A stretch of DNA of 64,000 nt from Elusimicrobia bacterium UBA6262. GTDB lineage: Bacteria; CAYTYR01; UBA6262. The position numbers were made by a program, and so were the translations under genes. The stretch covers positions 61,072 through 125,071 of the forward strand of contig DJVG01000034.1 in NCBI GenBank assembly GCA_002441095.1, given 5' to 3'. This document shows, one piece after another, positions 5,912 through 62,627 of the stretch. Numbering within the stretch: position 1 is the first letter of the stretch; each line of letters starts with the position of its first letter. Under the pieces are notes generated by a model, which was given only the letters and a program-made list of their open reading frames with translations, was not told the origin of the DNA and made no database searches.

Positions 5912-6661
5912 CTATTTTACAGCCTTGATAATAACTCGCCCGTGTACCGGCATATTCCTCCTGAGCAATCCTTTAGCCAGGTCTTTCCAATGTAATGGGG
6001 TTTTATGGAGGACCTCAAATCCCGTAAAGCCAACATCCCGCAGCATCGCTTTTATAGCGCTGATAGTAGGCAGGTGCCAATTAGTGGGATCCTGATTAAA
6101 AGTAGAACCTTGCACATATTCCAGCAATGGCCGGTTATTCATATTTTTCAGGTAAGCTGTTTCTATGATCAGTGTTCTTTTGCAAACCTGGGCAATTTTT
6201 TCCAAGGCCAGGACCGGATACTTCAAATGATATAAAACCCCTAGAAACAAAACCAGATCAAATTCTCCCAGCTTCTTCGGGTCAATATCATATACATCCA
6301 AGTCAACATATTTAACTTTAGACTGCAGGATCTCTTTAGCTACCTGAAATCCCTTAGTGCCCAAACTGGCATATTTTACTTCATCAGCCCTTTGCATGCG
6401 ATACAGGTTATCAATAGCCACAACTTCCCTGGCTCCTCTTTTTTCACATTCGAAGCTGTAGAAACCGTCCCAGGCGCCTATATCCAGGACTCTTTGCCCT
6501 TTTAAATCTCCGGGCAAAGCAAGCCGGTTTATAGTAATGAGATTATCCATTACTTTACCCGGCGTAATAATTCCTTCCCCTAAAGGGATAGAATGCCCCC
6601 AAAAAGGTACTTCTTTGATCTTAGCTAATATCTGTTCCTTGGACATCGTCATTCCCGGCAC
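5912..6661 (-). CDS. class I SAM-dependent methyltransferase
   Basis: VLDIGAWDGFYSF...EVVAIDN matches motif I and the post-I acidic residue. Confidence 0.7.
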   Translation of the reverse strand: MPGMTMSKEQILAKIKEVPFWGHSIPLGEGIITPGKVMDNLITINRLALPGDLKGQRVLDIGAWDGFYSFECEKRGAREVVAIDNLYRMQRADEVKYASLGTKGFQVAKEILQSKVKYVDLDVYDIDPKKLGEFDLVLFLGVLYHLKYPVLALEKIAQVCKRTLIIETAYLKNMNNRPLLEYVQGSTFNQDPTNWHLPTISAIKAMLRDVGFTGFEVLHKTPLHWKDLAKGLLRRNMPVHGRVIIKAVK

Positions 6662-22880: not shown

Positions 22881-23004
22881 AACTACTCCTAAGAGAAAAA
22901 TAAGTCCTATCTTTAAAAGCAGTTTTAAGTTTAAAGTTGAAAGTGTTAAGTTTCGGTAATATTATTGATATAATAACCTTAACTTAAAACTTTACACTTT
23001 TAAC
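22881..23004. repeat. family-D AT-rich palindromic element (AAGTTTAAAGT / ACTTTAAACTT-like arms)
   Basis: aagtttaaagttgaaagtgttaagttt...cttaacttaaaactttacacttttaacttataactt between rfbD and rfbB. Confidence 0.6.
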
Positions 23005-23973
23005 TTATAACTTTTTTTCTTTTAACTTCTTCCACCATTGCTGATTTTCTTTATACCAATCAATGGTTTCTTTTAATGCCTGGTTGAAATCATGCTGGGG
23101 TTTCCAACCCATTTCGCTCCTCAGCTTGAAACAATCCAAGGCATAACGGCGGTCATGACCCAGCCGGTCAGTAACTGGCTGAATAAATTCATCATTTTTG
23201 CCTAACAGCTCCAGGATCTTTTTGGTTAGCTCAATATTAGCCAGCTCATTGCTGCCGCCAATATTATAAATTTCTCCAGCCTTACCCTTGTGCATCACCT
23301 GGTCGATAGCTTCGCAGTTATCCAGTACATAAACCCAATCCCGCACATTCTGGCCGTCGCCATATAGGGGCACCGGCTTTTCTTCCAAAATATTAGTGAT
23401 AAAAAGAGGTATTACTTTTTCCGGAAACTGGTACGGCCCGAAATTATTACTGGAACGGGTGATTATGACCGGCAATTGATAGGTAGCGAGATAGGATAAA
23501 GCCAGCAGGTCAGCACTCGCCTTAGAAGCTGAATACGGGCTTGAAGGCTTCAGGTTGTCTGCTTCTTTGAACGCTCCTTTTTCGATAGACCCATAAACTT
23601 CATCTGTCGAGATCTGGATGAATTTGCTGATATTATTCTTTTTAGCTGCTTCCAATAAGGTATAAGTCCCGAACACATTGGTTTTAATAAAATCACCGGC
23701 ACTGACAATAGAGCGGTCAACATGGGTTTCCGCTGCAAAATTAACGATAACCTGGGTTTCTTTTACCCATTTAGCGACTATTTTAGGATCAGCAATATCA
23801 CCTTTGACAAATCTATAGCGCTTATTTTTCTTCAGGTCTGCTAAATTTTCCAAATTACCCGCATAGGTTAATTTATCCAAATTAATAATTTCATAATCAG
23901 GATATTTCTTCAGTATATGCCTGATAAAGTTAGACCCTATGAATCCTGCCCCACCCGTAATTAATAGCCTCAT
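23005..23973 (-). CDS. rfbB: dTDP-glucose 4,6-dehydratase
   Basis: [16 protein letters not shown]...; RmlB length and motifs. Confidence 0.85.
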   Translation of the reverse strand: MRLLITGGAGFIGSNFIRHILKKYPDYEIINLDKLTYAGNLENLADLKKNKRYRFVKGDIADPKIVAKWVKETQVIVNFAAETHVDRSIVSAGDFIKTNVFGTYTLLEAAKKNNISKFIQISTDEVYGSIEKGAFKEADNLKPSSPYSASKASADLLALSYLATYQLPVIITRSSNNFGPYQFPEKVIPLFITNILEEKPVPLYGDGQNVRDWVYVLDNCEAIDQVMHKGKAGEIYNIGGSNELANIELTKKILELLGKNDEFIQPVTDRLGHDRRYALDCFKLRSEMGWKPQHDFNQALKETIDWYKENQQWWKKLKEKKL

Positions 23974-23994: not shown

Positions 23995-24135
23995 TGTCGC
24001 TAGTCTCTAGTCGCTGGTCGCTAGTCTAAATACAGTCTCTGGTTACTAGTTTCTGGTCGCTAGTTCTTATGGTATTATTATTTGCTCTAATGCTTTTACT
24101 AGCAACTAGATACCAGCGACTAGCGACTGTCTTTA
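23995..24135. repeat. family-E palindromic element (GTCGCTAGTC / GACTAGCGAC arms)
   Basis: gtcgctagtctctagtcgctggtcgctagtc...ctggtcgctagttc / ctagcaactagataccagcgactagcgactg. Confidence 0.7.
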
Positions 24136-25733: not shown

Positions 25734-25750
25734 TGAAATACCTCTACATA

Positions 25751-25842
25751 GTTGCGAGTTTCCAGTTGCGAGTTGCGAGTTAAAAAACCTGACCTTGATC
25801 TTTTATTGTTTAACCGCGAACTGCGAACTGCCAACCGCGAAC
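25751..25842. repeat. family-A element variant (3x AGTTGCGAGTT then GCGAACT repeats)
   Basis: agttgcgagtttccagttgcgagttgcgagtt...aaccgcgaactgcgaactgccaaccgcgaacc. Confidence 0.65.
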
Positions 25843-25847
25843 CGTTT

Positions 25848-33638: not shown

Positions 33639-33738
33639 CTCTAAATACAGTTGCGAGTTCCCGGTTTCAGGTTACGAGTTTTGATATATGCCTTGAATAA
33701 AAACCTTAACTCGCAACCCGCAACTCGAAACTTGTCAA
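33639..33738. repeat. family-A palindromic element (GTTGCGAGTT / AACTCGCAAC arms)
   Basis: agttgcgagttcccggtttcaggttacgagtttt ... aactcgcaacccgcaactcgaaac; near-identical architecture to 35816-35921. Confidence 0.75.
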
Positions 33739-40827: not shown

Positions 40828-42318
40828 CTACTCCAGTCCTTCTTCTGCCATTTCCACTGCCTTCACCATTGCCCTGGCCTTATTCACTGTCTCCTGGTAC
40901 TCCTTAGCTGGGTCACTGTCTGCGACAATACCAGCCCCAGCCTGCACATAAGCATTATCACCCTTGATGATTATCGTCCGAATAGTAATACAGGCATCCA
41001 GGTTACCGCTGAAGGAAAAATAGCCCACACATCCGGCATAAGGCCCGCGTTTGACTGGTTCCAGTTCATCAATGATCTCCATCGCCCGTATCTTCGGCGC
41101 CCCGGATACAGTCCCAGCCGGGAAACAAGCCCGTAAGACGTCAAAAGAGTTTTTTCCGCGGCTCAATTTGCCGACCACATCTGAGACTATATGCTGAACA
41201 TGGGAATATTTCTCGATCACCATTAACTCCGGCACCTTAACTGTATGAAAATCGCAAACCCGGCCGATATCATTGCGCCCCAGGTCAACCAGCATAATAT
41301 GCTCAGCCCGTTCTTTCGGGTCAGCCAGCAGCTGCTTTTCCAATAAAATATCTTCTTCGTCTGTTTTGCCCCGCGGCCGCGTACCAGCAATTGGCCGGAC
41401 TTCCACTGTGCCCTCTTCTTCACGCACCAGGATCTCGGGAGATGTACCGACGAGATATTCCCCATTGCATTTCAGGAAATACATATAGCTGGACGGGTTA
41501 ATCCTCCGCAAGGAGCGGTAAATATCAAAAGGACTGGATTTGATCTTCATTTTAAAGCGCTGTGACAACACCACCTGAATAATATCTCCGGCCTTGATAT
41601 ATTCTTTGGCTTTAACGATCATTTTTTTGAAAGCTGCTAAGGTAAAATTAGATTCCATTTTTAAAGCTGGTTTAAGGTGTGGTTTGTGCAGCGGGATCTC
41701 TGCCGGCTTACGCAGTAGGGCGATCAGCTTATCTATCTTGGCGCAGGCTTCTTTATATACTTTCTGTTCATTTTTTTCCACATGAGCGCAGGATACTACC
41801 TTGATCGTATGGTTCACATGGTCAAAGATGAGGATAGTATCCGTGAACATAAAGACACTGTCAGCCAGTTTCAGGTCATCCGGGTTCTGGTCAGTTTTTT
41901 TGAGACACGGCTCAAAGAAGCGCACCATATCATAACCCATATAACCGACTGCCCCGCCATAAAAACGCGGCAAGCCCCGGTGATGCACCGGCCGGTAGTC
42001 TTTCATCAATTGCTGCAGGATATAGAGCGGATCATTGCCTTTCAGATCAATATTTATGTTTATACCTTTACAGATAATCCTGGCCTGGCCGCCTTTGGAT
42101 TCCAGAATAATGGAAGGACTGGCAGAAATAAAGGAATAGCGCCCTAATTTCTCGCCCCCTTCCACGCTTTCCAGCAGATAAGCATACTTGGCGTCCTGGG
42201 ATATCTTGTAAAACGCAGATACCGGTGTTTCCATATCTGCCAGGATCTCTTTGTAAACCGGTATTAAATTATATTTTTTCGCTAATTTCTTAAATTCTTT
42301 AAATTCTGGGTAAAACAT
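40828..42318 (-). CDS. trpE: anthranilate synthase component I
   Basis: LLESVEGGEKLGRYSFI and C-terminal chorismate-binding motifs. Confidence 0.9.
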   Translation of the reverse strand: MFYPEFKEFKKLAKKYNLIPVYKEILADMETPVSAFYKISQDAKYAYLLESVEGGEKLGRYSFISASPSIILESKGGQARIICKGININIDLKGNDPLYILQQLMKDYRPVHHRGLPRFYGGAVGYMGYDMVRFFEPCLKKTDQNPDDLKLADSVFMFTDTILIFDHVNHTIKVVSCAHVEKNEQKVYKEACAKIDKLIALLRKPAEIPLHKPHLKPALKMESNFTLAAFKKMIVKAKEYIKAGDIIQVVLSQRFKMKIKSSPFDIYRSLRRINPSSYMYFLKCNGEYLVGTSPEILVREEEGTVEVRPIAGTRPRGKTDEEDILLEKQLLADPKERAEHIMLVDLGRNDIGRVCDFHTVKVPELMVIEKYSHVQHIVSDVVGKLSRGKNSFDVLRACFPAGTVSGAPKIRAMEIIDELEPVKRGPYAGCVGYFSFSGNLDACITIRTIIIKGDNAYVQAGAGIVADSDPAKEYQETVNKARAMVKAVEMAEEGLE

Positions 42319-42671
42319 CTTAACCTCATATTATTTAATTAGTATTTTCCGTGTATCAGGTAACTGTCACTATTTGTTCGCTCCAGTGTCGATTTTTAGC
42401 GTCAAAGGTCTTGCGTCAACTCGGTGCCGAGAAACTCGCCCCTTGGGCTCAGACAATCTCGGCATCCAGCAGCCAAAGATACCCTCGTTGCTTGCAAGCA
42501 TGCTTTGACTAAAATCGACAAGCTCGCTCAAAATAATGACAAGTTCCCTGATCTGTATGGTTGCCGTTATCATCAGAGTAACTGGGGGTGGCGAGGGTTT
42601 GATTTTTGCCAGGGTTATTGATGCTTTTGTCCCGATATAGTTATATCGGGAAGACAGGACCCCAAGTAAAC
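42319..42671 (-). ncRNA. 353-nt trpE 5' leader containing blocks conserved with the polA leader (family F); function unknown
   Basis: Blocks gtatcaggtaactgtcactatttgtt (42353-42378), caaaggtctt (42403-42412) and cgacaagctcgctcaaaataatgacaagttccctgatctgta (42516-42557) recur at 60220-60405. A perfect hairpin cccgatata..tatatcggg sits at 42631-42650. Confidence 0.4.
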
Positions 42672-43061
42672 CTATTTCTTATATACTTTCTCAGGATCAA
42701 AGACCCTTTTACCTTTTACTTTCAATTTTCCTTTTTCCAGTACCCGGTAAAAACAACTCTTAAACCCGGTGTGGCAGGCTGCCCCGCCTACTTGTTCTAT
42801 CTTTATCACCAGCGCATCACCGTCGCAATCAAGGCAAACTTGCTTTACCTTCTGGATATTGCCGCTGGTCTCGCCTTTCAACCAGTATTTGTGACGTGAG
42901 CGTGACCAGTACCAGCATTGCTTATCGCGCAGGGTGCGCTTGAGCGCTTCCTTATCCATATAAGCCAGCATCAGGATATCACCTGTTTTGTAATCCTGTA
43001 ATACTGCCGGCACTAAACCATTCTTGTCAAACTTCACTTGCCTTAAAATAACCTGGGTCAT
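42672..43061 (-). CDS. hisI: phosphoribosyl-AMP cyclohydrolase (monofunctional, no HisE fusion)
   Basis: 129 aa; ...[10 protein letters not shown]...C.GD. Confidence 0.85.
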
Positions 43062-43828: not shown

Positions 43829-43902
43829 AGCGTTAAGCGGGTAGCGTTTAGCGTATAGAAAATCTTTTAAAACTATCCGCTATACGCCATACGCTATACG
43901 CC
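43829..43902. repeat. family-B palindromic element (TATACGC / GCGTATA heptad arms)
   Basis: gcgttaagcgggtagcgtttagcgtatag-aaaatcttttaaaa-ctatccgctatacgccatacgctatacgcc. Confidence 0.75.
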
Positions 43903-50364: not shown

Positions 50365-50469
50365 GTTCTAATTTCTAATTTCTAAACTCTAAACAATTTC
50401 AAAATTCTAATATTCAAAACGTTTTGAATTTTGGTAATTTAATATTGTTTAGGATTTCGAATTTAGTAT

Positions 50470-51348
50470 TTAGGATTTGTTCTTTGCTATTATTATTCTT
50501 TCAATTCCAGCATAATCTTTTTTAATCTCAATATTACTGAAAAGCTGCTCTTTTTCCAATAATTGCTTTATTTTCCCGGCTTGCCCATACCCTATCTCAA
50601 ACGCCAGTAAGCCTCCCGGCTGCAGGTAGTACCTGGCCTGGGGAATGATCTTGCGATAAAAATCCAGGCCGTCCTTCCCGCCATAAAGAGCGGCTTTTGG
50701 TTCATATCCGACTTCTGGCTGTAACGCAGCAAAATCTTTCTCAGTGACATACGGCGGATTAGACACGATAAAATCGAACTTTTCCTTCAGCCTGGCAAAC
50801 AAACTGCCCCTGATCAGTTTAACCTGTGTTTCTACCCGGTGTTTCTTAATATTTTTCCTGGCGATTCTGAGCGCTTTTGCCGAGGTATCTGTCCCTAGTA
50901 TGCTGGCCTGGTTCAAATTTTTAGCCAGGGCCACGACAATCGCCCCGCTCCCCACCCCAATCTCCAATATCTTTAGTTTACCAGCGACTAGCGACCAGCG
51001 ACTAGCGACTGCTTTTATTATTTCTTCTACCAGCAGCTCCGTCTCCGGCCGGGGAATGAGTACTCCTTTATTAATGAACAGGTCCAAGCCATAGAATTGC
51101 GCATTCTTTAAAATATAGCTAGCTGGTATCCTCTGGCGACGCAATACAATATATTTTTTGAAACACGTTAAGTCTTTTTTGGCTATTTCTTTTTCTTTTT
51201 TCAGGAACAGGTCCAGTTTTTTCATTCTCAGTGCCTGGGAAAGCAGCAACTGCGCTTCCAAAGCCGGCTCAGGCACCCTGGCTTGGGTTAATTGTTCAAT
51301 CCCCCATTCTAATAATGTGCTAATCCGAGAGCCATTTATAATACTCAT
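50470..51348 (-). CDS. prmC: peptide chain release factor N5-glutamine methyltransferase
   Basis: LIPRPETE...[11 protein letters not shown]...IVSNPPYV. Confidence 0.85.
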
Positions 51349-52418: not shown

Positions 52419-52537
52419 TTGAAACCTTTCTGTTGCGAATTACGCGAATTAAAAGACGCGAATTACACGAATGTTCTTATTCGAGGTATTCGCTGTCCTG
52501 CCTACCGGCAGGCAGGCATTCGAGTTATTCGTATTAT

Positions 52538-53894: not shown

Positions 53895-53915
53895 GAACGT
53901 CTTCCTCCTCTTTTT

Positions 53916-53993
53916 AGCGGGTAGCGTTTAGCGGGTAGCGTATAGAAAATCAATATTCTTTTCCTATACGCTATACGCCATACGCTATACGCT
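53916..53993. repeat. family-B palindromic element
   Basis: gcgggtagcgtttagcgggtagcgtatag-aaaatcaatattctttt-cctatacgctatacgccatacgctatacgc. Confidence 0.75.
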
Positions 53994-56056: not shown

Positions 56057-56136
56057 GGCGTAAAGCGTATGGCGTATAGCGGATAGTAAGAAGAAATTGT
56101 TTTCTATACGCTACCCGCTAAACGCTATCCGCTATC
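56057..56136. repeat. family-B palindromic element
   Basis: gcgtaaagcgtatggcgtatagcggatag-taagaagaaattgttttc-tatacgctacccgctaaacgctatccgc. Confidence 0.75.
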
Positions 56137-57531: not shown

Positions 57532-60192
57532 TCATTCCAGGTCTCTCCAATTGGTGCCGACGCTGACATTGGCCTCTAAAGGTACATCCAGTTTTAAGGC
57601 TGTTTCCATTTCCTGCTTGATCATCTTGGTTAACTGCTTCTCTTCTGCTTTTGGCACTTCAAATATCAGTTCATCGTGAACCTGCAGCAGCATTTTCGCC
57701 TGGAAGGTTTCCTGCTTCAGTTTTTTAGCTATATTGATCATCGCAATCTTGATAATATCCGCGGCTGTCCCCTGGATCGGCATATTGATCGCTACCCGCT
57801 CGGCAAAAGAGCGGATGTTCCTGTCCTTGGCATTAATTTCCGGCAGGTATCTCCGGCGGTTCAGCAGGGTCGTGACAAAACCGTCATGCCGGGCTTTTTC
57901 CACTATCTTTTCCATATATTCTTTTACGCCACTGAAACGGGCAAAGTATTTATCAATATAATCCTTGGCTGTTGCTGCGTCTATACCCAAGGCCTGGGAT
58001 AGTCCATACGGGCTCATGCCATAGGAAAGGCCAAAGTTAACTGTTTTGGCTATGCGTCTTTTTTCATCATCTACTTCCTCTGGTTTCAAGCCGAATATCT
58101 CACACGCGGTATGGCTATGGATATCTTCATGGTTATGGAATGCCTGCTTCATATGTTCATCGCCAGACATATGCGCCAATACCCGCAGGTCGATCTGCGA
58201 GTAGTCGGCAGACACAAATATACATCCTTCTTTGGGAATGAACGAGCGCCTGATGGACCGCCCGATCTCGGTCCGGATCGGGATATTCTGCAGGTTCGGC
58301 TCGCTGGAGGATAATCTCCCGGTATTGGTCACGGTCTGGTTAAATGAAGTGTGCAACCGGCCGGTTTTGGGATTGATCATTTCCGGTATCGGATCAATAT
58401 AGGTTGATTTAAGCTTGGCCAGCTCCCGGTATTCAATTATTCTCTTCGGCAGATCATGCATAGCCTGCAGTTGGCGCAGGACTGATTCATTGGTTGACGC
58501 GCCGGTTTTGGTTTTTTCTATGATCGGCAGTCCCAGTTTTTCAAAAAGGATCTTGGATAATTGCTGGGGTGAGTTAATATTAAACTCAGTATCAGCTATT
58601 TTGTAGATCACCTGTTCCAAAGCAACAATTTTCCCATCGATCTCTTTGGATAATTCTTTCAGGTATGGCAGGTCCACCAGTATCCCCGCGTATTCCATCC
58701 CTGCCAGGATCTCCAGCACCGGCATTTCTACGTCATAGAATAACTTATCCAGTCCTTTTTCTTTGAGCAAGAATGATAGTTTCTGTTTTAACCGCCAGAC
58801 CATATCCACCTGGGCACAGGCATATTCGCTAACTCTTTCCACCTGCACCTGGTCCATAGTGATCTGTTTGGCCCCTTTGCCGATCAGGTCTGTGATCGGG
58901 ATCATTTTATATTGCATATATTCAGCAGAGATATCCCCCAGACTGTGGTTAAGTTTGGATGGATTGATGAGATAAGAAGCGATCATAGTATCAAAAGATA
59001 TACCATTCAGTTTCAGGCCTTCATTTTTCAGGACCAGCAGGTCATATTTCAGGTTTTGCCCGTATTTCTTTATCTGCTCATCTTCAATAATGGATTTAAG
59101 CAGGTCCAGGGTTTTCTTTTTATCTTGAGCTGGGGCACCCAGGTAGTTGTGAGCCACGGGTAGGTAATATGCTTTTTTTTCTTCAAAACATAATACCAGG
59201 CCAACTATTTCCGCCAACATGGGCTCGCTGCTATTGGTTTCCAGGTCAATAGAAACTTCATTTTTCTGCTTTATTTGGGAGGCGATCTTTTCCATCTCGG
59301 CTGATGTAGTAATAACTTCATAGCACGCGTCTTTTTCCGTGCTCTGATCGATCAATTCAGTAGTCAAGGACTTGAATTCATATTTATGGAACAAAGCCAT
59401 GGCTTTTTCCTGGTCCAAAGGGACTGGTTTCAGGTCTTCCAAGGTCATATTGAGCGGCACATTTTCTACCAAGGTCACCAACTCTTTTGATTTAAAAGCC
59501 AGTTCCTTGCCTGCCTCCATTTTATTCTTTACTTTAGCCGGCATTTTGTCCAGGTTCTGATACATATTCTCAATAGTCCCGAATTCTTTTACCAGCTGCA
59601 AAGCGGTTTTTTCCCCTATGCCTGGTACTCCAGGAATATTGTCGCTGGAGTCGCCGCATAAGCCTAAATAGTCTTTGATCTTATCAGCGTCAAACCCAAA
59701 TTTTTCCTGCACTTCCTTTTCAGTGAAAAGTACTCCCTTGGGCTCGCTCAGTACTTTGATATGTTCATCTACCAGCTGGAGTATATCTTTATCCCCGCTG
59801 ACCACAACCACATCCACATCCTGCTTTTCTGCTTGCCGGGCAATAGTAGCGATCAGGTCATCAGCTTCATAGCCAGGCATCCGGAAAACCGGTATCTTGA
59901 ATGCTTCTACCATTTCCTGGACCATGGGTATCTGCGTTTTTAGTTCAGCAGGAGTTTCCTTGCGGGTAGCTTTATACTGTTCGAAGGCTTTGTGCCGGAA
60001 AGTCGGATGCGGGGAATCAAAGCAAACTGCCAGGTAATCAGGCTGTTCACGCTTAATTATCTTGAGAAGCATGCGGGTAAAACCATAGACGGCATTGATC
60101 ACCAGGCCTTGGGAATTGGTGAGCATCGGGAGGGCATGGAACGCGCGGTGGATATAGGCATGTCCATCTATGATATAGAGTTTCTTTTTCAA
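57532..60192 (-). CDS. polA: DNA polymerase I
   Basis: 5' nuclease, 3'-5' exo-like and Pol A motifs (RRxAKxxNFGxxYG -> RRIAKTVNFGLSYG); TTG start preceded by GAGG. Confidence 0.9.
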   Translation of the reverse strand: MKKKLYIIDGHAYIHRAFHALPMLTNSQGLVINAVYGFTRMLLKIIKREQPDYLAVCFDSPHPTFRHKAFEQYKATRKETPAELKTQIPMVQEMVEAFKIPVFRMPGYEADDLIATIARQAEKQDVDVVVVSGDKDILQLVDEHIKVLSEPKGVLFTEKEVQEKFGFDADKIKDYLGLCGDSSDNIPGVPGIGEKTALQLVKEFGTIENMYQNLDKMPAKVKNKMEAGKELAFKSKELVTLVENVPLNMTLEDLKPVPLDQEKAMALFHKYEFKSLTTELIDQSTEKDACYEVITTSAEMEKIASQIKQKNEVSIDLETNSSEPMLAEIVGLVLCFEEKKAYYLPVAHNYLGAPAQDKKKTLDLLKSIIEDEQIKKYGQNLKYDLLVLKNEGLKLNGISFDTMIASYLINPSKLNHSLGDISAEYMQYKMIPITDLIGKGAKQITMDQVQVERVSEYACAQVDMVWRLKQKLSFLLKEKGLDKLFYDVEMPVLEILAGMEYAGILVDLPYLKELSKEIDGKIVALEQVIYKIADTEFNINSPQQLSKILFEKLGLPIIEKTKTGASTNESVLRQLQAMHDLPKRIIEYRELAKLKSTYIDPIPEMINPKTGRLHTSFNQTVTNTGRLSSSEPNLQNIPIRTEIGRSIRRSFIPKEGCIFVSADYSQIDLRVLAHMSGDEHMKQAFHNHEDIHSHTACEIFGLKPEEVDDEKRRIAKTVNFGLSYGMSPYGLSQALGIDAATAKDYIDKYFARFSGVKEYMEKIVEKARHDGFVTTLLNRRRYLPEINAKDRNIRSFAERVAINMPIQGTAADIIKIAMINIAKKLKQETFQAKMLLQVHDELIFEVPKAEEKQLTKMIKQEMETALKLDVPLEANVSVGTNWRDLE

Positions 60193-60618
60193 GGTAAAAA
60201 CCTCATTGTCTGGCTCTGCGTATCAGTGAACTGTCACTATTTGTTTCCGCCAAAGAGACTGGCGGACTCCCTCTGGTCGCGCTTGCCAAAGGTCTTTAAA
60301 CTCAATAATTGCTTCAGCCGCAGGCTGATCCGCCGATCTTTTTGGAGGATTTGGGCTGAAACACGACAAGCTCGCTCAAAATAATGACCAGTTCCCTGAT
60401 CTATACAGTGTATAAGAGGCGAGCGCGGCCGCTGATGTCGTGTAGAAAACCCTGCCTGCCGGCAGGCAGGGTTCGAGAGTCTTGAGTTGGCATGGACTCT
60501 TCATCCCCGTACTTTGGGGAACTCAAGCGAGAATTGAGTGCGTTTTCCTCGCAGGGGAAAACGACACGCTTTTCGGAACGACGCAGCGTGACAGCGAGCC
60601 CTATTATATCTTAATAAA
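60193..60618 (-). ncRNA. 426-nt polA leader / suhB trailer with blocks conserved with the trpE leader, plus several perfect hairpins; function unknown
   Basis: Blocks at 60220-60245, 60286-60296 and 60364-60405 match the trpE leader. Hairpins: ccgccaaagagactggcgg, ccctgcctgccggcaggcaggg, cgttttcctcgcaggggaaaacg. Confidence 0.4.
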
Positions 60619-61431
60619 TTAGTATTTATCAAAAACGACCCGGCAGTGGAAGTCTTTCAGCCGACGGACCAGTATTTTGCTCATCTGCGCATGGAGTAAC
60701 CCATTTGTGGCCAGGATCTCCTGGTCATAATGGGAATATTTACTGCCATTAAATTTGGACAGCTTCCCGCCGGCTTCTTTCACTACCAGGATAGCTGCCG
60801 CCGTATCCCAGGGCTTGAGACCGATTTCCCAGAATCCGTCAAAACGCCCGCAGGCCACATAGCACAGATCCAGCGCTGCAGACCCCATCCGGCGTATCGC
60901 CTGGGACGTCATCAAGAAATCAACAAAATGTTCGACATTGGAATCCCGGGCATCTTTAATTTCATAGGCAAACCCGGTACAGAGCAGGGATTTTTTCATG
61001 TCTTTGGTCTTGGAAACTTTTATTTTCTTTTTGTTTAGATAAGCGCCGCCGCCCTTGGTAGCATAAAAAAGTTCATTATGCATGGGGTCATAAACAACTC
61101 CGACTGCCGGCTGGCAGTTGATCTCCAGTGCGATCGAAACGCTGAAATACGGAAAGCCATGGGCAAAATTAGTTGTACCGTCTATCGGGTCAACGATCCA
61201 CCGGTAACCTTTTTTTTCCCTCTCGCCACCGCTTTCCTCACCTAAGAAGAGATGTTTGGGGAACTTTCTGAGGAGATGCTCTTTGATCAACCGTTCAGAT
61301 GCCTTGTCCACATCAGTGACCAGGTCAATCGCGCCTTTATAATTAATCGTTTTTATTTTCCCGACGCGCCGGCGGATCAATTCTCCGCTTTTCTTCGCCG
61401 CCGCAATCGCTTCTCCAAGAAATTTGTTCAA
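60619..61431 (-). CDS. suhB: inositol monophosphatase family protein
   Basis: WIVDPIDGTTNF metal-binding motif. Confidence 0.8.
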   Translation of the reverse strand: MNKFLGEAIAAAKKSGELIRRRVGKIKTINYKGAIDLVTDVDKASERLIKEHLLRKFPKHLFLGEESGGEREKKGYRWIVDPIDGTTNFAHGFPYFSVSIALEINCQPAVGVVYDPMHNELFYATKGGGAYLNKKKIKVSKTKDMKKSLLCTGFAYEIKDARDSNVEHFVDFLMTSQAIRRMGSAALDLCYVACGRFDGFWEIGLKPWDTAAAILVVKEAGGKLSKFNGSKYSHYDQEILATNGLLHAQMSKILVRRLKDFHCRVVFDKY

Positions 61432-62110: not shown

Positions 62111-62305
62111 CTATTGCTTTAATAGTTTAAGCATTTCCTGGGCGATCTGGATATGCTTGATCTCATCCTGCTTGATCTGCCCTAAACGGGCAATAATAAA
62201 TTCATCATGTATTTGGCTGATTATCTGGGTATACAGTTTTAGCGCAATTTTTTCCCGCTCTAGTATATCTTCAAACTTTTTAATGATATTTTCGCTAATA
62301 GTCAT
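62111..62305 (-). CDS. small ferritin-like half-domain protein
   Basis: 64 aa. ILEREKIALKLYTQII...KQDEIKHIQIAQEML parallels the first helix pair of the downstream gene, with a single ExxH. Confidence 0.35.
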   Translation of the reverse strand: MTISENIIKKFEDILEREKIALKLYTQIISQIHDEFIIARLGQIKQDEIKHIQIAQEMLKLLKQ

Positions 62306-62627
62306 TTTTTTGTCCCTGCCTGATCTGTTCCATGAGCTCCTGGACCATAGCTTTATGCTTGAGGCTATCCTGTTCCAAGACCTTCAAGGAGGCATCGATC
62401 TTTTTCAGGGAAGCCGGCTCCAAAGGGAGATTATCCACTACGTTTTGGAAAAAATAGCTCATCAGGGAGACAAATTCTTCCTCAATGGTATTACCGCTCT
62501 GCAGTTGTTTCAGGAGTTCATTCTTGTTCAAGCCAGGTACCTGCTCTTTCTGTTCAGGTTGGTTATCTAGGCAAGACCACTTTTGGCGGGTGTCCAAATT
62601 CTTGTTCAAATATTTTAGGGAATTCAT
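62295..62627 (-). CDS. hypothetical protein
   Basis: 110-aa ORF. It overlaps the thyX 3' end by 65 nt and the next ORF by 11 nt; the real start may be an internal Met. Confidence 0.3.
   Translation of the reverse strand: MNSLKYLNKNLDTRQKWSCLDNQPEQKEQVPGLNKNELLKQLQSGNTIEEEFVSLMSYFFQNVVDNLPLEPASLKKIDASLKVLEQDSLKHKAMVQELMEQIRQGQKNDY

What the first reader, a model, noticed from the sequence alone, without database searches (positions are those of the whole stretch)
42319..42671. trpE leader shares three conserved sequence blocks with the polA leader; no Trp leader peptide, T-box or classic attenuator found
The 353-nt region upstream of trpE has no tandem Trp codons and no T-box (AGGGTGGNACCGCG) on either strand. 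It shares three blocks with the 426-nt region upstream of polA, in the same order and orientation relative to the downstream start. The blocks are GTATCAG(G/T)(T/G)AACTGTCACTATTTGTT about 35 nt before the RBS, CAAAGGTCTT, and the 42-nt CGACAAGCTCGCTCAAAATAATGAC(A/C)AGTTCCCTGATCT(G/A)TA. The intervening segments differ but are each internally self-complementary, for example gccgag...ctcggc versus ccgcca...tggcgg. This is the pattern expected of a structured RNA or protein-binding module rather than of random spacer. The shared block is read in different frames in the two copies, so it is not a conserved peptide.
Basis: seen in the sequence. Interest (0 to 1): 0.7.

Follow-up and report, generated by a model that had tools for sequence, protein, structure and literature searches.

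The report
Dispersed hairpin repeat, not a leader
The sequence shared upstream of trpE and polA is two copies of a roughly 200-bp hairpin-forming repeat with inverted ends that is scattered through the intergenic DNA of a few related uncultured bacteria, so it is MITE-like selfish DNA and not a tryptophan or polA control element.

Summary
The three shared blocks are real and lie at the stated coordinates. Blocks 1 and 3 are imperfect inverted repeats of each other. Together they bound a core element of about 190-210 bp (42348-42558 and 60216-60407, minus strand) that folds as one long hairpin.

A scan with the end motif found at least 26 copies or fragments in three related MAGs, plus more in one metagenome. 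The family has two interior subtypes (trpE type and polA type), solo ends, a 530-bp variant, and accessory modules attached to one end. Together these fill almost the whole trpE and polA spacers.

Copies lie in both orientations relative to neighbouring genes (about 14 sense, 12 antisense). Close relatives lack the element at both sites. Their hisI-trpE spacer is 47-100 nt and their inositol-monophosphatase-polA spacer is 43 nt. Other relatives carry a different subtype, an inverted copy, or a toxin-antitoxin cassette there.

Nothing matches in Rfam. There is no T-box and no Trp leader peptide.

The hairpin keeps compensatory changes (11 pairs against 3.1 in shuffles). No target-site duplication and no transposase partner were found.

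Verdict: a new family of MITE/ERIC/REPIN-like mosaic intergenic repeats.

The parts
42348..42558 (-). Core repeat element, interior subtype 1 (trpE copy), 211 bp. It reads A end to C end on the minus strand.
   Evidence: nhmmer profile hit, E=2.9e-62. Aligns with 12 other type-1 copies. Folds as a rod at -81 kcal/mol.
42516..42557 (-). A end: the 42-nt block, TACAGATCAGGGAACTTGTCATTATTTTGAGCGAGCTTGTCG on the minus strand
   Evidence: Nearly invariant in all copies.
42353..42378 (-). C end: the 26-nt block, an imperfect inverted repeat of the A end. It ends 29-35 nt before the trpE start.
42403..42412 (-). Interior block AAGACCTTTG, shared by both subtypes. It is part of the rod stem.
42560..42668 (-). 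Accessory module Y, joined to the A end. It fills the rest of the hisI-trpE spacer.
   Evidence: Also joined to an A end in L006, L021, L029 and L032. The reverse complement of its start flanks the C ends in L004 and L024.
60216..60407 (-). Core repeat element, interior subtype 2 (polA copy), 192 bp
   Evidence: nhmmer hit, E=7.5e-45. 93-94% identical to the L004 and L011 copies.
60364..60405 (-). A end of the polA copy
60220..60245 (-). C end of the polA copy. The element ends 23 nt before the polA TTG start.
60287..60296 (-). Interior block AAGACCTTTG of the polA copy
60406..60602 (-). Accessory module X, about 197 nt and made of several small hairpins, joined to the A end
   Evidence: Found directly upstream of an A end in L001, L003, L005, L014, L022, L024, L027, L031 and L041. 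Stems show compensatory change, for example CGTTTTCC/GGAAAACG against CGATTTCC/GGAAATCG.
60451..60470 (.). 20-nt palindrome CCTGCCTGCCGGCAGGCAGG nested inside module X
   Evidence: Absent from the other X copies. Also at 52497-52516, and inside the L016 core copy.
40828..42318 (-). trpE (anthranilate synthase component I), the gene on the C-end side
   Evidence: PF04715, PF00425.
42672..43061 (-). hisI (PRA-CH), the gene on the A-end side
57532..60192 (-). polA, the gene on the C-end side
60619..61431 (-). Inositol monophosphatase family gene, on the A-end side

Best explanation
The two regions are two copies of a non-coding, hairpin-forming mosaic intergenic repeat, MITE-like and closest in behaviour to ERIC, Correia and REPIN/BIME elements. 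Each core is bounded by a 37-42-nt 'A end' and a 26-45-nt 'C end' that are imperfect inverted repeats. Between them lies one of two self-complementary interiors. Accessory modules (X or Y) are often joined to the A end. The family has spread and turned over in the intergenic DNA of a small clade of uncultured bacteria. In this genome, a Y+type-1 unit sits between hisI and trpE and an X+type-2 unit sits between the inositol-monophosphatase gene and polA. Both happen to be co-oriented with the genes.

Shown here:
- the family exists;
- it has inverted ends, subtypes and a conserved hairpin;
- copies lie in both orientations;
- the element is absent or different at orthologous sites in relatives.

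Inferred:
- the conserved ends are recognition sites for a transposase or recombinase encoded elsewhere;
- any effect on trpE or polA is incidental, most likely a long hairpin in a read-through his-trp transcript that could be an RNase III target or a stability determinant. It is not Trp-responsive regulation.
For: - Inverted ends.
- The end motif finds paired A/C ends about 150-220 bp apart (about 510 bp in L001) in 13 loci of three MAGs (JAQTQE01, JAQTPL01, CAYTYR01). One metagenome, Ga0265297, holds further copies.
- The profile search gives 26 copies or fragments in the MAG loci and only the two in the window.
- There are two interior subtypes, solo A ends and a 530-bp variant.
- Orientation is 14 sense against 12 antisense. 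By independent site it is about 9 against 8.
- hisI-trpE site in relatives: a 47-nt spacer where TrpE is 80% identical (L042, L043), and 100 nt where TrpE is 94% identical (L044). The profile finds no element there.
- polA site in relatives: a 43-nt spacer in L047, a toxin-antitoxin cassette in L046, a type-1 copy in place of type 2 in L017, and an inverted X+type-1 unit in L014.
- Sublineages are shared between genomes at non-orthologous sites. L017 and L020 are 93% identical. The window trpE copy is closest to L013, at 90% by BLAST.
- The rod structure has 97% of cells paired. 11 pairs show compensatory change against 3.1 +/- 1.3 in shuffles (0 of 500 shuffles reach it) and 1-3 in the slid controls.
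- The two spacers are the largest in the window, and repeat modules fill them almost completely.
- No Rfam family matches.
Against: - No consistent target-site duplication flanks the copies.
- No autonomous element was found. No pair of ends encloses a transposase-sized segment in the genome or metagenome scans. The two ends 2.09 kb apart in L007 belong to two separate copies flanking a lipoprotein gene. No transposase turned up among the neighbouring genes examined by Pfam or by reading their translations.
- Filled and empty orthologous spacers cannot be aligned, so a clean insertion event is not demonstrated.
- The orthologous copies in L006 and L021 are somewhat better conserved (92-94%) than the flanking genes (87.5%).
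- The A-to-C strand folds better than its complement in 16 of 19 copies. The last two points leave room for a host-level or single-strand-specific function.
- Only 8-kb pieces of the related genomes were seen, and nothing of the window's genome beyond the 64 kb.
Confidence: 0.8

Rival explanations
1. It is a cis-regulatory structured RNA (riboswitch or attenuator-type leader) shared by the trpE and polA mRNAs.
For: Both window copies lie in the sense orientation 23-29 nt upstream of the start codons. The spacer RNAs fold with z about -4. The structure carries compensatory changes. trpE has no other recognisable control element.
Against: About half of all copies are antisense or sit just after a stop codon. 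The element is missing upstream of trpE in relatives with 80% and 94% identical TrpE, and upstream of polA in L047 and L046. Subtype and orientation differ at the same site between species. The fold is a plain rod with no ligand-pocket-like junction. No Rfam family matches.
Confidence: 0.03
2. It is a host-exapted intergenic module, comparable to REP/BIME or ERIC elements in function. The ends would bind a host protein, or the hairpin would punctuate polycistronic transcripts through processing, stabilisation or partial termination.
For: The ends are nearly invariant across species whose genes are only 77-88% identical. Orthologous copies are at least as conserved as the flanking genes. Compensatory changes maintain the hairpin. 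In this window all called genes but one short ORF run on one strand, and almost every spacer holds some kind of hairpin. A weak hairpin followed by a T-run lies in the A end.
Against: Close relatives dispense with the element at the same sites, where heptamer hairpins occupy the spacer instead. The rod is not followed by a proper U-tract. Concerted evolution or recent spread explains the conservation equally well. There is no direct evidence of protein binding.
Confidence: 0.13
3. It is a regulator-binding cassette for DNA-repair genes, an SOS-like operator carried on a repeat.
For: Many neighbouring genes are repair or replication genes: polA, recA, a dinB-like gene, LigD phosphoesterase, an HhH-GPD glycosylase and ligA.
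Against: This is a post hoc observation on about 17 sites. Other neighbours are trpE, leuC-like, glycosyltransferase, UPF0016 and gpsA genes. Neither end contains a conserved palindrome resembling a known LexA box (read). The polA copy is absent in relatives.
Confidence: 0.03

Closest known systems
ERIC / IRU elements of enterobacteria (from my own knowledge)
   Same: Imperfect palindromes of about 130 bp that fold as a long hairpin. They are confined to intergenic, transcribed regions and occur in either orientation. Their presence differs between species at the same site. Larger variants carry internal insertions.
   Different: There is no sequence similarity. The present elements are longer (186-235 bp), have two alternative interiors, and carry extra modules (X or Y) on one end.
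Correia elements (CREE/NEMIS) of Neisseria (from my own knowledge)
   Same: A MITE with terminal inverted repeats of about 26 bp and length subtypes that differ in the interior. Copies sit close to gene starts and ends, are co-transcribed, and form hairpins.
   Different: Correia elements have a TA target duplication and defined promoter, IHF and RNase III features. No target duplication was found here, and promoter-like matches are weak and not general.
REPINs and BIMEs (REP doublets mobilised by RAYT transposases; from my own knowledge)
   Same: Inverted doublets that form a hairpin maintained by compensatory change. They lack a target duplication and are combined in a mosaic with variable linkers. 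The two end variants differ by a small indel, as the Y and Z REPs do. Folding may be strand-specific.
   Different: Each arm here is not itself a short REP palindrome. No RAYT gene could be looked for. The arms and interior are much longer.
BOX elements of Streptococcus pneumoniae and NIMEs of Neisseria (from my own knowledge)
   Same: Modular repeats with conserved terminal modules and swappable inner modules, which fill whole intergenic regions.
   Different: The sequences, hosts and module sets are unrelated.
T-box riboswitch and trp leader-peptide attenuators
   Same: They occupy the same kind of position, upstream of trpE.
   Different: There is no T-box sequence, no tandem Trp codons, no terminator/antiterminator pair and no Rfam match.

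Membership tests
MITE (miniature inverted-repeat transposable element) | Short (under about 500 bp) and non-coding | tested here: met
   Cores are about 170-250 bp. Copies differ by indels of 1, 4, 7 and 10 nt, which break any reading frame.
MITE (miniature inverted-repeat transposable element) | Terminal inverted repeats | tested here: met
   The A and C ends share ATCAGGKAACT(N)GTCAYTATTT in inverted orientation. They pair in the consensus fold.
MITE (miniature inverted-repeat transposable element) | Many dispersed copies per genome | tested here: met
   Exact-end scanning alone found ends at 5-8 loci per MAG, 19 family loci in all. The profile search found 26 copies or fragments. The window holds 2 in 64 kb.
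MITE (miniature inverted-repeat transposable element) | Presence/absence polymorphism at orthologous sites | tested here: met
   The trpE site is empty in L042, L043 and L044. The polA site is empty in L047 and different in L046, L017 and L014.
MITE (miniature inverted-repeat transposable element) | Target-site duplication flanking each copy | tested here: not met
   No consistent direct repeat flanks the copies whose ends abut unique sequence, namely L008, L011, L012, L016 and L020. An 'AT' duplication cannot be told apart from the ATCAG/CTGAT end symmetry.
MITE (miniature inverted-repeat transposable element) | A cognate autonomous IS with the same ends | tested here: inconclusive
   None was found in genome contigs, metagenome contigs, viral contigs, plasmids or phages. 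MAGs often lose IS copies, however, and whole genomes were not available.
REPIN / REP-RAYT system | An inverted doublet forming a hairpin kept by compensatory substitutions | tested here: met
REPIN / REP-RAYT system | Each arm is a short REP palindrome | tested here: not met
   The A and C ends have no conserved internal palindrome. The only one is a weak 6-bp stem whose middle position varies without compensation.
REPIN / REP-RAYT system | A single-copy RAYT (Y1 transposase) gene flanked by the repeats | not testable with these tools
   Whole genomes of the hosts cannot be scanned. None of the 10 neighbouring genes examined has such a domain.
T-box riboswitch (RF00230) | A match to the covariance model and the conserved T-box sequence | tested here: not met
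Leader-peptide transcription attenuator (trpL type) | A short ORF with tandem Trp codons plus alternative terminator and antiterminator hairpins | tested here: not met
   No TGGTGG and no terminator-like site in 42200-42800.
Any Rfam 15 family | A score at or above the gathering threshold | tested here: not met
   0 matches in the window. The best sub-threshold hits reach at most 21 bits against cut-offs of 45 bits or more.

The most novel reading that the evidence does not exclude
The repeats may not be mere junk. They could be one part of a lineage-specific system of intergenic hairpin modules, together with the heptamer-periodic hairpins and the 20-nt palindrome, that the host maintains. 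One form of this would be a REPIN-RAYT-like single-strand-DNA partnership. Another would be RNA punctuation of very long co-directional transcription units. The better folding of the A-to-C strand, the compensatory changes and the above-gene conservation of orthologous copies would then be signs of function.
Probability: 0.12. Interest if true: 0.55.

Novelty: new member of a known kind. Interest (0 to 1): 0.25.

Why it matters
The result removes a false lead. There is no new trp or polA regulatory RNA here, and how this organism controls trpE remains open. It also documents a previously undescribed family of mosaic, hairpin-forming intergenic repeats in a poorly known uncultured lineage. NCBI labels these MAGs only 'bacterium', and relatives are labelled variously Elusimicrobiota, Omnitrophica or Clostridia. 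Repeats of this kind break assemblies: contig JAQTPL010000033 appears to end inside module X, because locus L014 starts there. They mark hot spots of spacer turnover, and they can mislead motif-based searches for riboswitches.

Tried and rejected
- **Known RNA families.** Rfam at gathering score and at E<=10 gave nothing meaningful.
- **Conserved peptide.** Rejected. The stop-free-run test was uninformative, but frame-breaking indels between copies exclude a shared ORF.
- **Autonomous partner.** No pair of ends encloses a transposase. The 2.09-kb pair in L007 proved to be two separate copies flanking a lipoprotein gene. No neighbouring gene is a transposase. There are no plasmid or phage matches and no viral-contig matches.
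- **Target-site duplication.** None is consistent.
- **Outward promoter or terminator in the ends.** Only 9-of-12 promoter-like matches, which do not hold across copies. One weak hairpin with a T-run in the A end, with an uncompensated variable base.
- **LexA/SOS-box reading of the ends.** No conserved palindrome, so not pursued further.
- **Clean empty-site alignment to define insertion boundaries.** The filled and empty spacers share no alignable sequence.
- **Literature.** No hit for the sequence or for the MAG source.
- **Exact look-up of the window's TrpE.** It is not in the collection, so the window's own genome could not be retrieved.

Full report
**Observation**

The 42-nt and 26-nt blocks each occur exactly twice in the window, against zero expected by chance. 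They lie at 42516-42557 / 60364-60405 and at 42353-42378 / 60220-60245. The 10-mer CAAAGGTCTT lies between them in both places.

Both regions are upstream of minus-strand genes. These are trpE (40828-42318; PF04715 and PF00425) and polA (57532-60192). The genes on the other side are hisI (42672-43061) and an inositol-monophosphatase-family gene (60619-61431).

There are no tandem Trp codons and no T-box core. No terminator-like site lies in the trpE spacer. Rfam gives no match at gathering score and only noise at E<=10.

**What the blocks are**

The 26-nt block and the reverse complement of the 42-nt block are imperfect inverted repeats, ATCAGGKAACT(N)GTCAYTATTT. Read on the minus strand, each region is one unit: an 'A end' (the 42-mer), an interior, and a 'C end' (the 26-mer). 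The units span 211 bp at 42348-42558 and 192 bp at 60216-60407.

The unit folds as one long imperfect hairpin in which the A half pairs with the C half.

**It is a dispersed family**

One scan of the species-representative genome collection with the end motif returned 24 loci. Nineteen of them come from three related MAGs: 'bacterium' STB_132 (JAQTQE01), 'bacterium' STB_115 (JAQTPL01) and an 'uncultured Clostridia bacterium' (CAYTYR01). The other five are single chance hits in unrelated taxa.

In the family loci, an A-type end (22-mer) and a C-type end (21-mer) face each other about 150-220 bp apart. A profile built from 12 copies finds 26 copies or fragments in these loci and only the two in the window. 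The metagenome scan adds more copies, nearly all from one sample, Ga0265297. Viral contigs, plasmids and phages have none.

The family has several forms:
- Two interior subtypes, type 1 (as at trpE) and type 2 (as at polA).
- Solo A ends in L003, L018 and L022.
- A 530-bp copy with an internal insertion in L001.

**The rest of both spacers is also repeat**

The A end is often preceded by one of two accessory modules.
- Module X is about 197 nt and consists of several small hairpins. It lies at window 60406-60602.
- Module Y is about 110 nt. It lies at window 42560-42668.

In every case seen, each module is joined directly to an A end. The reverse complement of the start of X or Y follows the C end in some copies, which gives nested outer inverted repeats in mixed combinations. 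The window's X copy also carries a nested 20-nt palindrome (60451-60470) that the other X copies lack.

Repeat modules therefore account for all but about 30-40 nt of the 353-nt and 426-nt spacers. These are the two largest spacers in the window.

**No preference for leaders**

Relative to the neighbouring genes, 14 copies read A to C and then into a gene start, with the C end 7-68 nt from the start. Twelve copies are antisense, with the C end 7-88 nt beyond a stop codon (7-58 nt for the full-length copies) and the A side facing the next gene. Counting orthologous sites once, the split is about 9 against 8.

The window cannot test orientation on its own. All called genes but one 137-aa ORF are on the minus strand, and there are only two copies.

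**The element is not conserved at the two sites**

The hisI-trpE spacer differs among relatives:
- It is 47 nt in the genome whose TrpE is 80% identical (L042 and L043, GCA_003153935.1).
- It is 100 nt in the contig whose TrpE is 94% identical (L044).
- It is about 100 nt in L045.

These spacers contain heptamer-type repeats or unique sequence, and the profile finds no element in them.

The inositol-monophosphatase-polA spacer also differs:
- It is 43 nt in L047 and holds heptamer repeats only.
- It holds a PhdYeFM/ParE cassette in STB_132 (L046).
- It holds a short X plus a type-1 core in L017.
- It holds an X+type-1 unit in the opposite orientation in STB_115 (L014).
- The window has a long X plus a type-2 core.

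Other sites behave the same way. One is type 1 in L008 and type 2 in L011, and L011 also carries an extra orphan gene there. The spacer upstream of the glycosyltransferase gene carries the 530-bp copy in L001, a solo A end in sense orientation in L003, and a solo A end in antisense orientation in L018.

Copies do not cluster by genome. L017 and L020 are 93% identical at different loci in different MAGs. The window's trpE copy is closest to L013. Sublineages of the repeat have therefore been dispersed to new sites.

**Structure**

On 13 type-1 copies, the rod has 97% of pair cells paired. Eleven pairs show compensatory change, against 3.1 +/- 1.3 in column shuffles (0 of 500 reach it) and 1-3 when partners are slid. 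Module X shows the same behaviour in its small stems. The palindromic structure is maintained.

The A-to-C strand folds better than its complement in 16 of 19 copies, summing to -1531 against -1354 kcal/mol. This comes from a few fixed G-U positions. The copies share ancestry, so this is only a hint of single-strand specificity.

An orthologous pair, L006 and L021, is 92-94% identical in the repeat and 87.5% in the flanking genes. Either constraint or homogenisation between copies would explain that.

**Mechanism**

I commit to a mobile or recombining, non-coding mosaic repeat of the MITE/ERIC/REPIN kind (confidence 0.8). Its conserved ends are presumably bound by a transposase or recombinase encoded elsewhere.

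The steps not shown are the enzyme and the insertion chemistry. No target-site duplication is seen. No autonomous partner was found. Filled and empty spacers do not align, so no clean insertion junction can be drawn.

Any effect on trpE or polA is inferred to be incidental. In relatives, hisI and trpE are 47 nt apart and probably co-transcribed. Here a read-through transcript would carry a rod of about -81 kcal/mol just before the trpE ribosome-binding site.

**Rivals**

A dedicated leader RNA (0.03) is contradicted by orientation and by presence/absence. A host-exapted punctuation or protein-binding module (0.13) is not excluded. An SOS-like operator (0.03) rests only on a post hoc impression that many neighbours are repair genes.

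**Comparison and novelty**

The element works like ERIC, Correia, BOX and REPIN/BIME elements. It shares no sequence with anything in Rfam, plasmids, phages or the searched literature.

As a MITE it meets the criteria of size, inverted ends, copy number and site polymorphism. It fails the target-duplication criterion and lacks a known partner. As a REPIN it meets the hairpin-with-compensation criterion, but its arms are not REP palindromes, and RAYT association could not be tested.

It is a new member of a known kind, and interest is low to moderate. The most novel reading still open is a host-maintained hairpin-module system, at a probability of about 0.12.

Noticed in passing
window 22921-23028, 23996-24128, 25750-25844, 33640-33732, 43829-43902, 50366-50478, 53913-53993, 56058-56136 and others: About 30 short period-7 tandem arrays lie in the intergenic spacers. 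They usually come as two inverted arms of 4-5 heptamers that fold into a hairpin of -24 to -51 kcal/mol. The heptamer sequence differs from site to site, for example GCGTATA, AGTTGCG, GTCGCTA and TTCTAAT. The 'empty' trpE and polA spacers of relatives (L044, L047) hold only such repeats. I do not know what these are.
   Followed up: partly
window 52497-52516 and 60451-60470; L016 about 6420-6445: A 20-nt perfect palindrome, CCTGCCTRCCGGCAGGCAGG, recurs. It sits at the apex of another intergenic hairpin, inside module X of the polA copy only, and inside the core of the L016 copy. It behaves like a tiny insertion that lands in other repeats.
   Followed up: partly
window 1-64000: All 60 called ORFs of at least 90 aa except one (62157-62570, probably spurious) are on the minus strand. 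This is an unusually long co-directional run of about 59 genes. Typical spacers are about 100 nt.
   Followed up: no
L010, L022, L024, L007/L004, L017, window 57532-60192: Genes next to copies of the repeat include polA, recA, a dinB-like polymerase, a LigD phosphoesterase, an HhH-GPD glycosylase and ligA.
   Followed up: partly
L046 985-1487; L011 4288-5040: The spacers that hold the repeat in one genome hold small cassettes in another. STB_132 has a PhdYeFM/ParE toxin-antitoxin pair directly upstream of polA. A 250-aa orphan gene with no Pfam match and an AT-rich end lies beside the type-2 copy in L011, where L008 has none.
   Followed up: no
window 60603-60632 (minus strand): A near-consensus promoter-like site, TTGATA-18-TATAAT (11 of 12), overlaps the stop of the inositol-monophosphatase gene and ends just before module X. 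The equivalent position is not promoter-like in other X copies.
   Followed up: partly
L045 2337-2693 and 3442-4087: In a more distant relative, the trp operon is interrupted between trpE and trpG by a 23S-rRNA-IVP/bAvd-like gene. A nucleotidyltransferase/HepT pair follows trpG.
   Followed up: no
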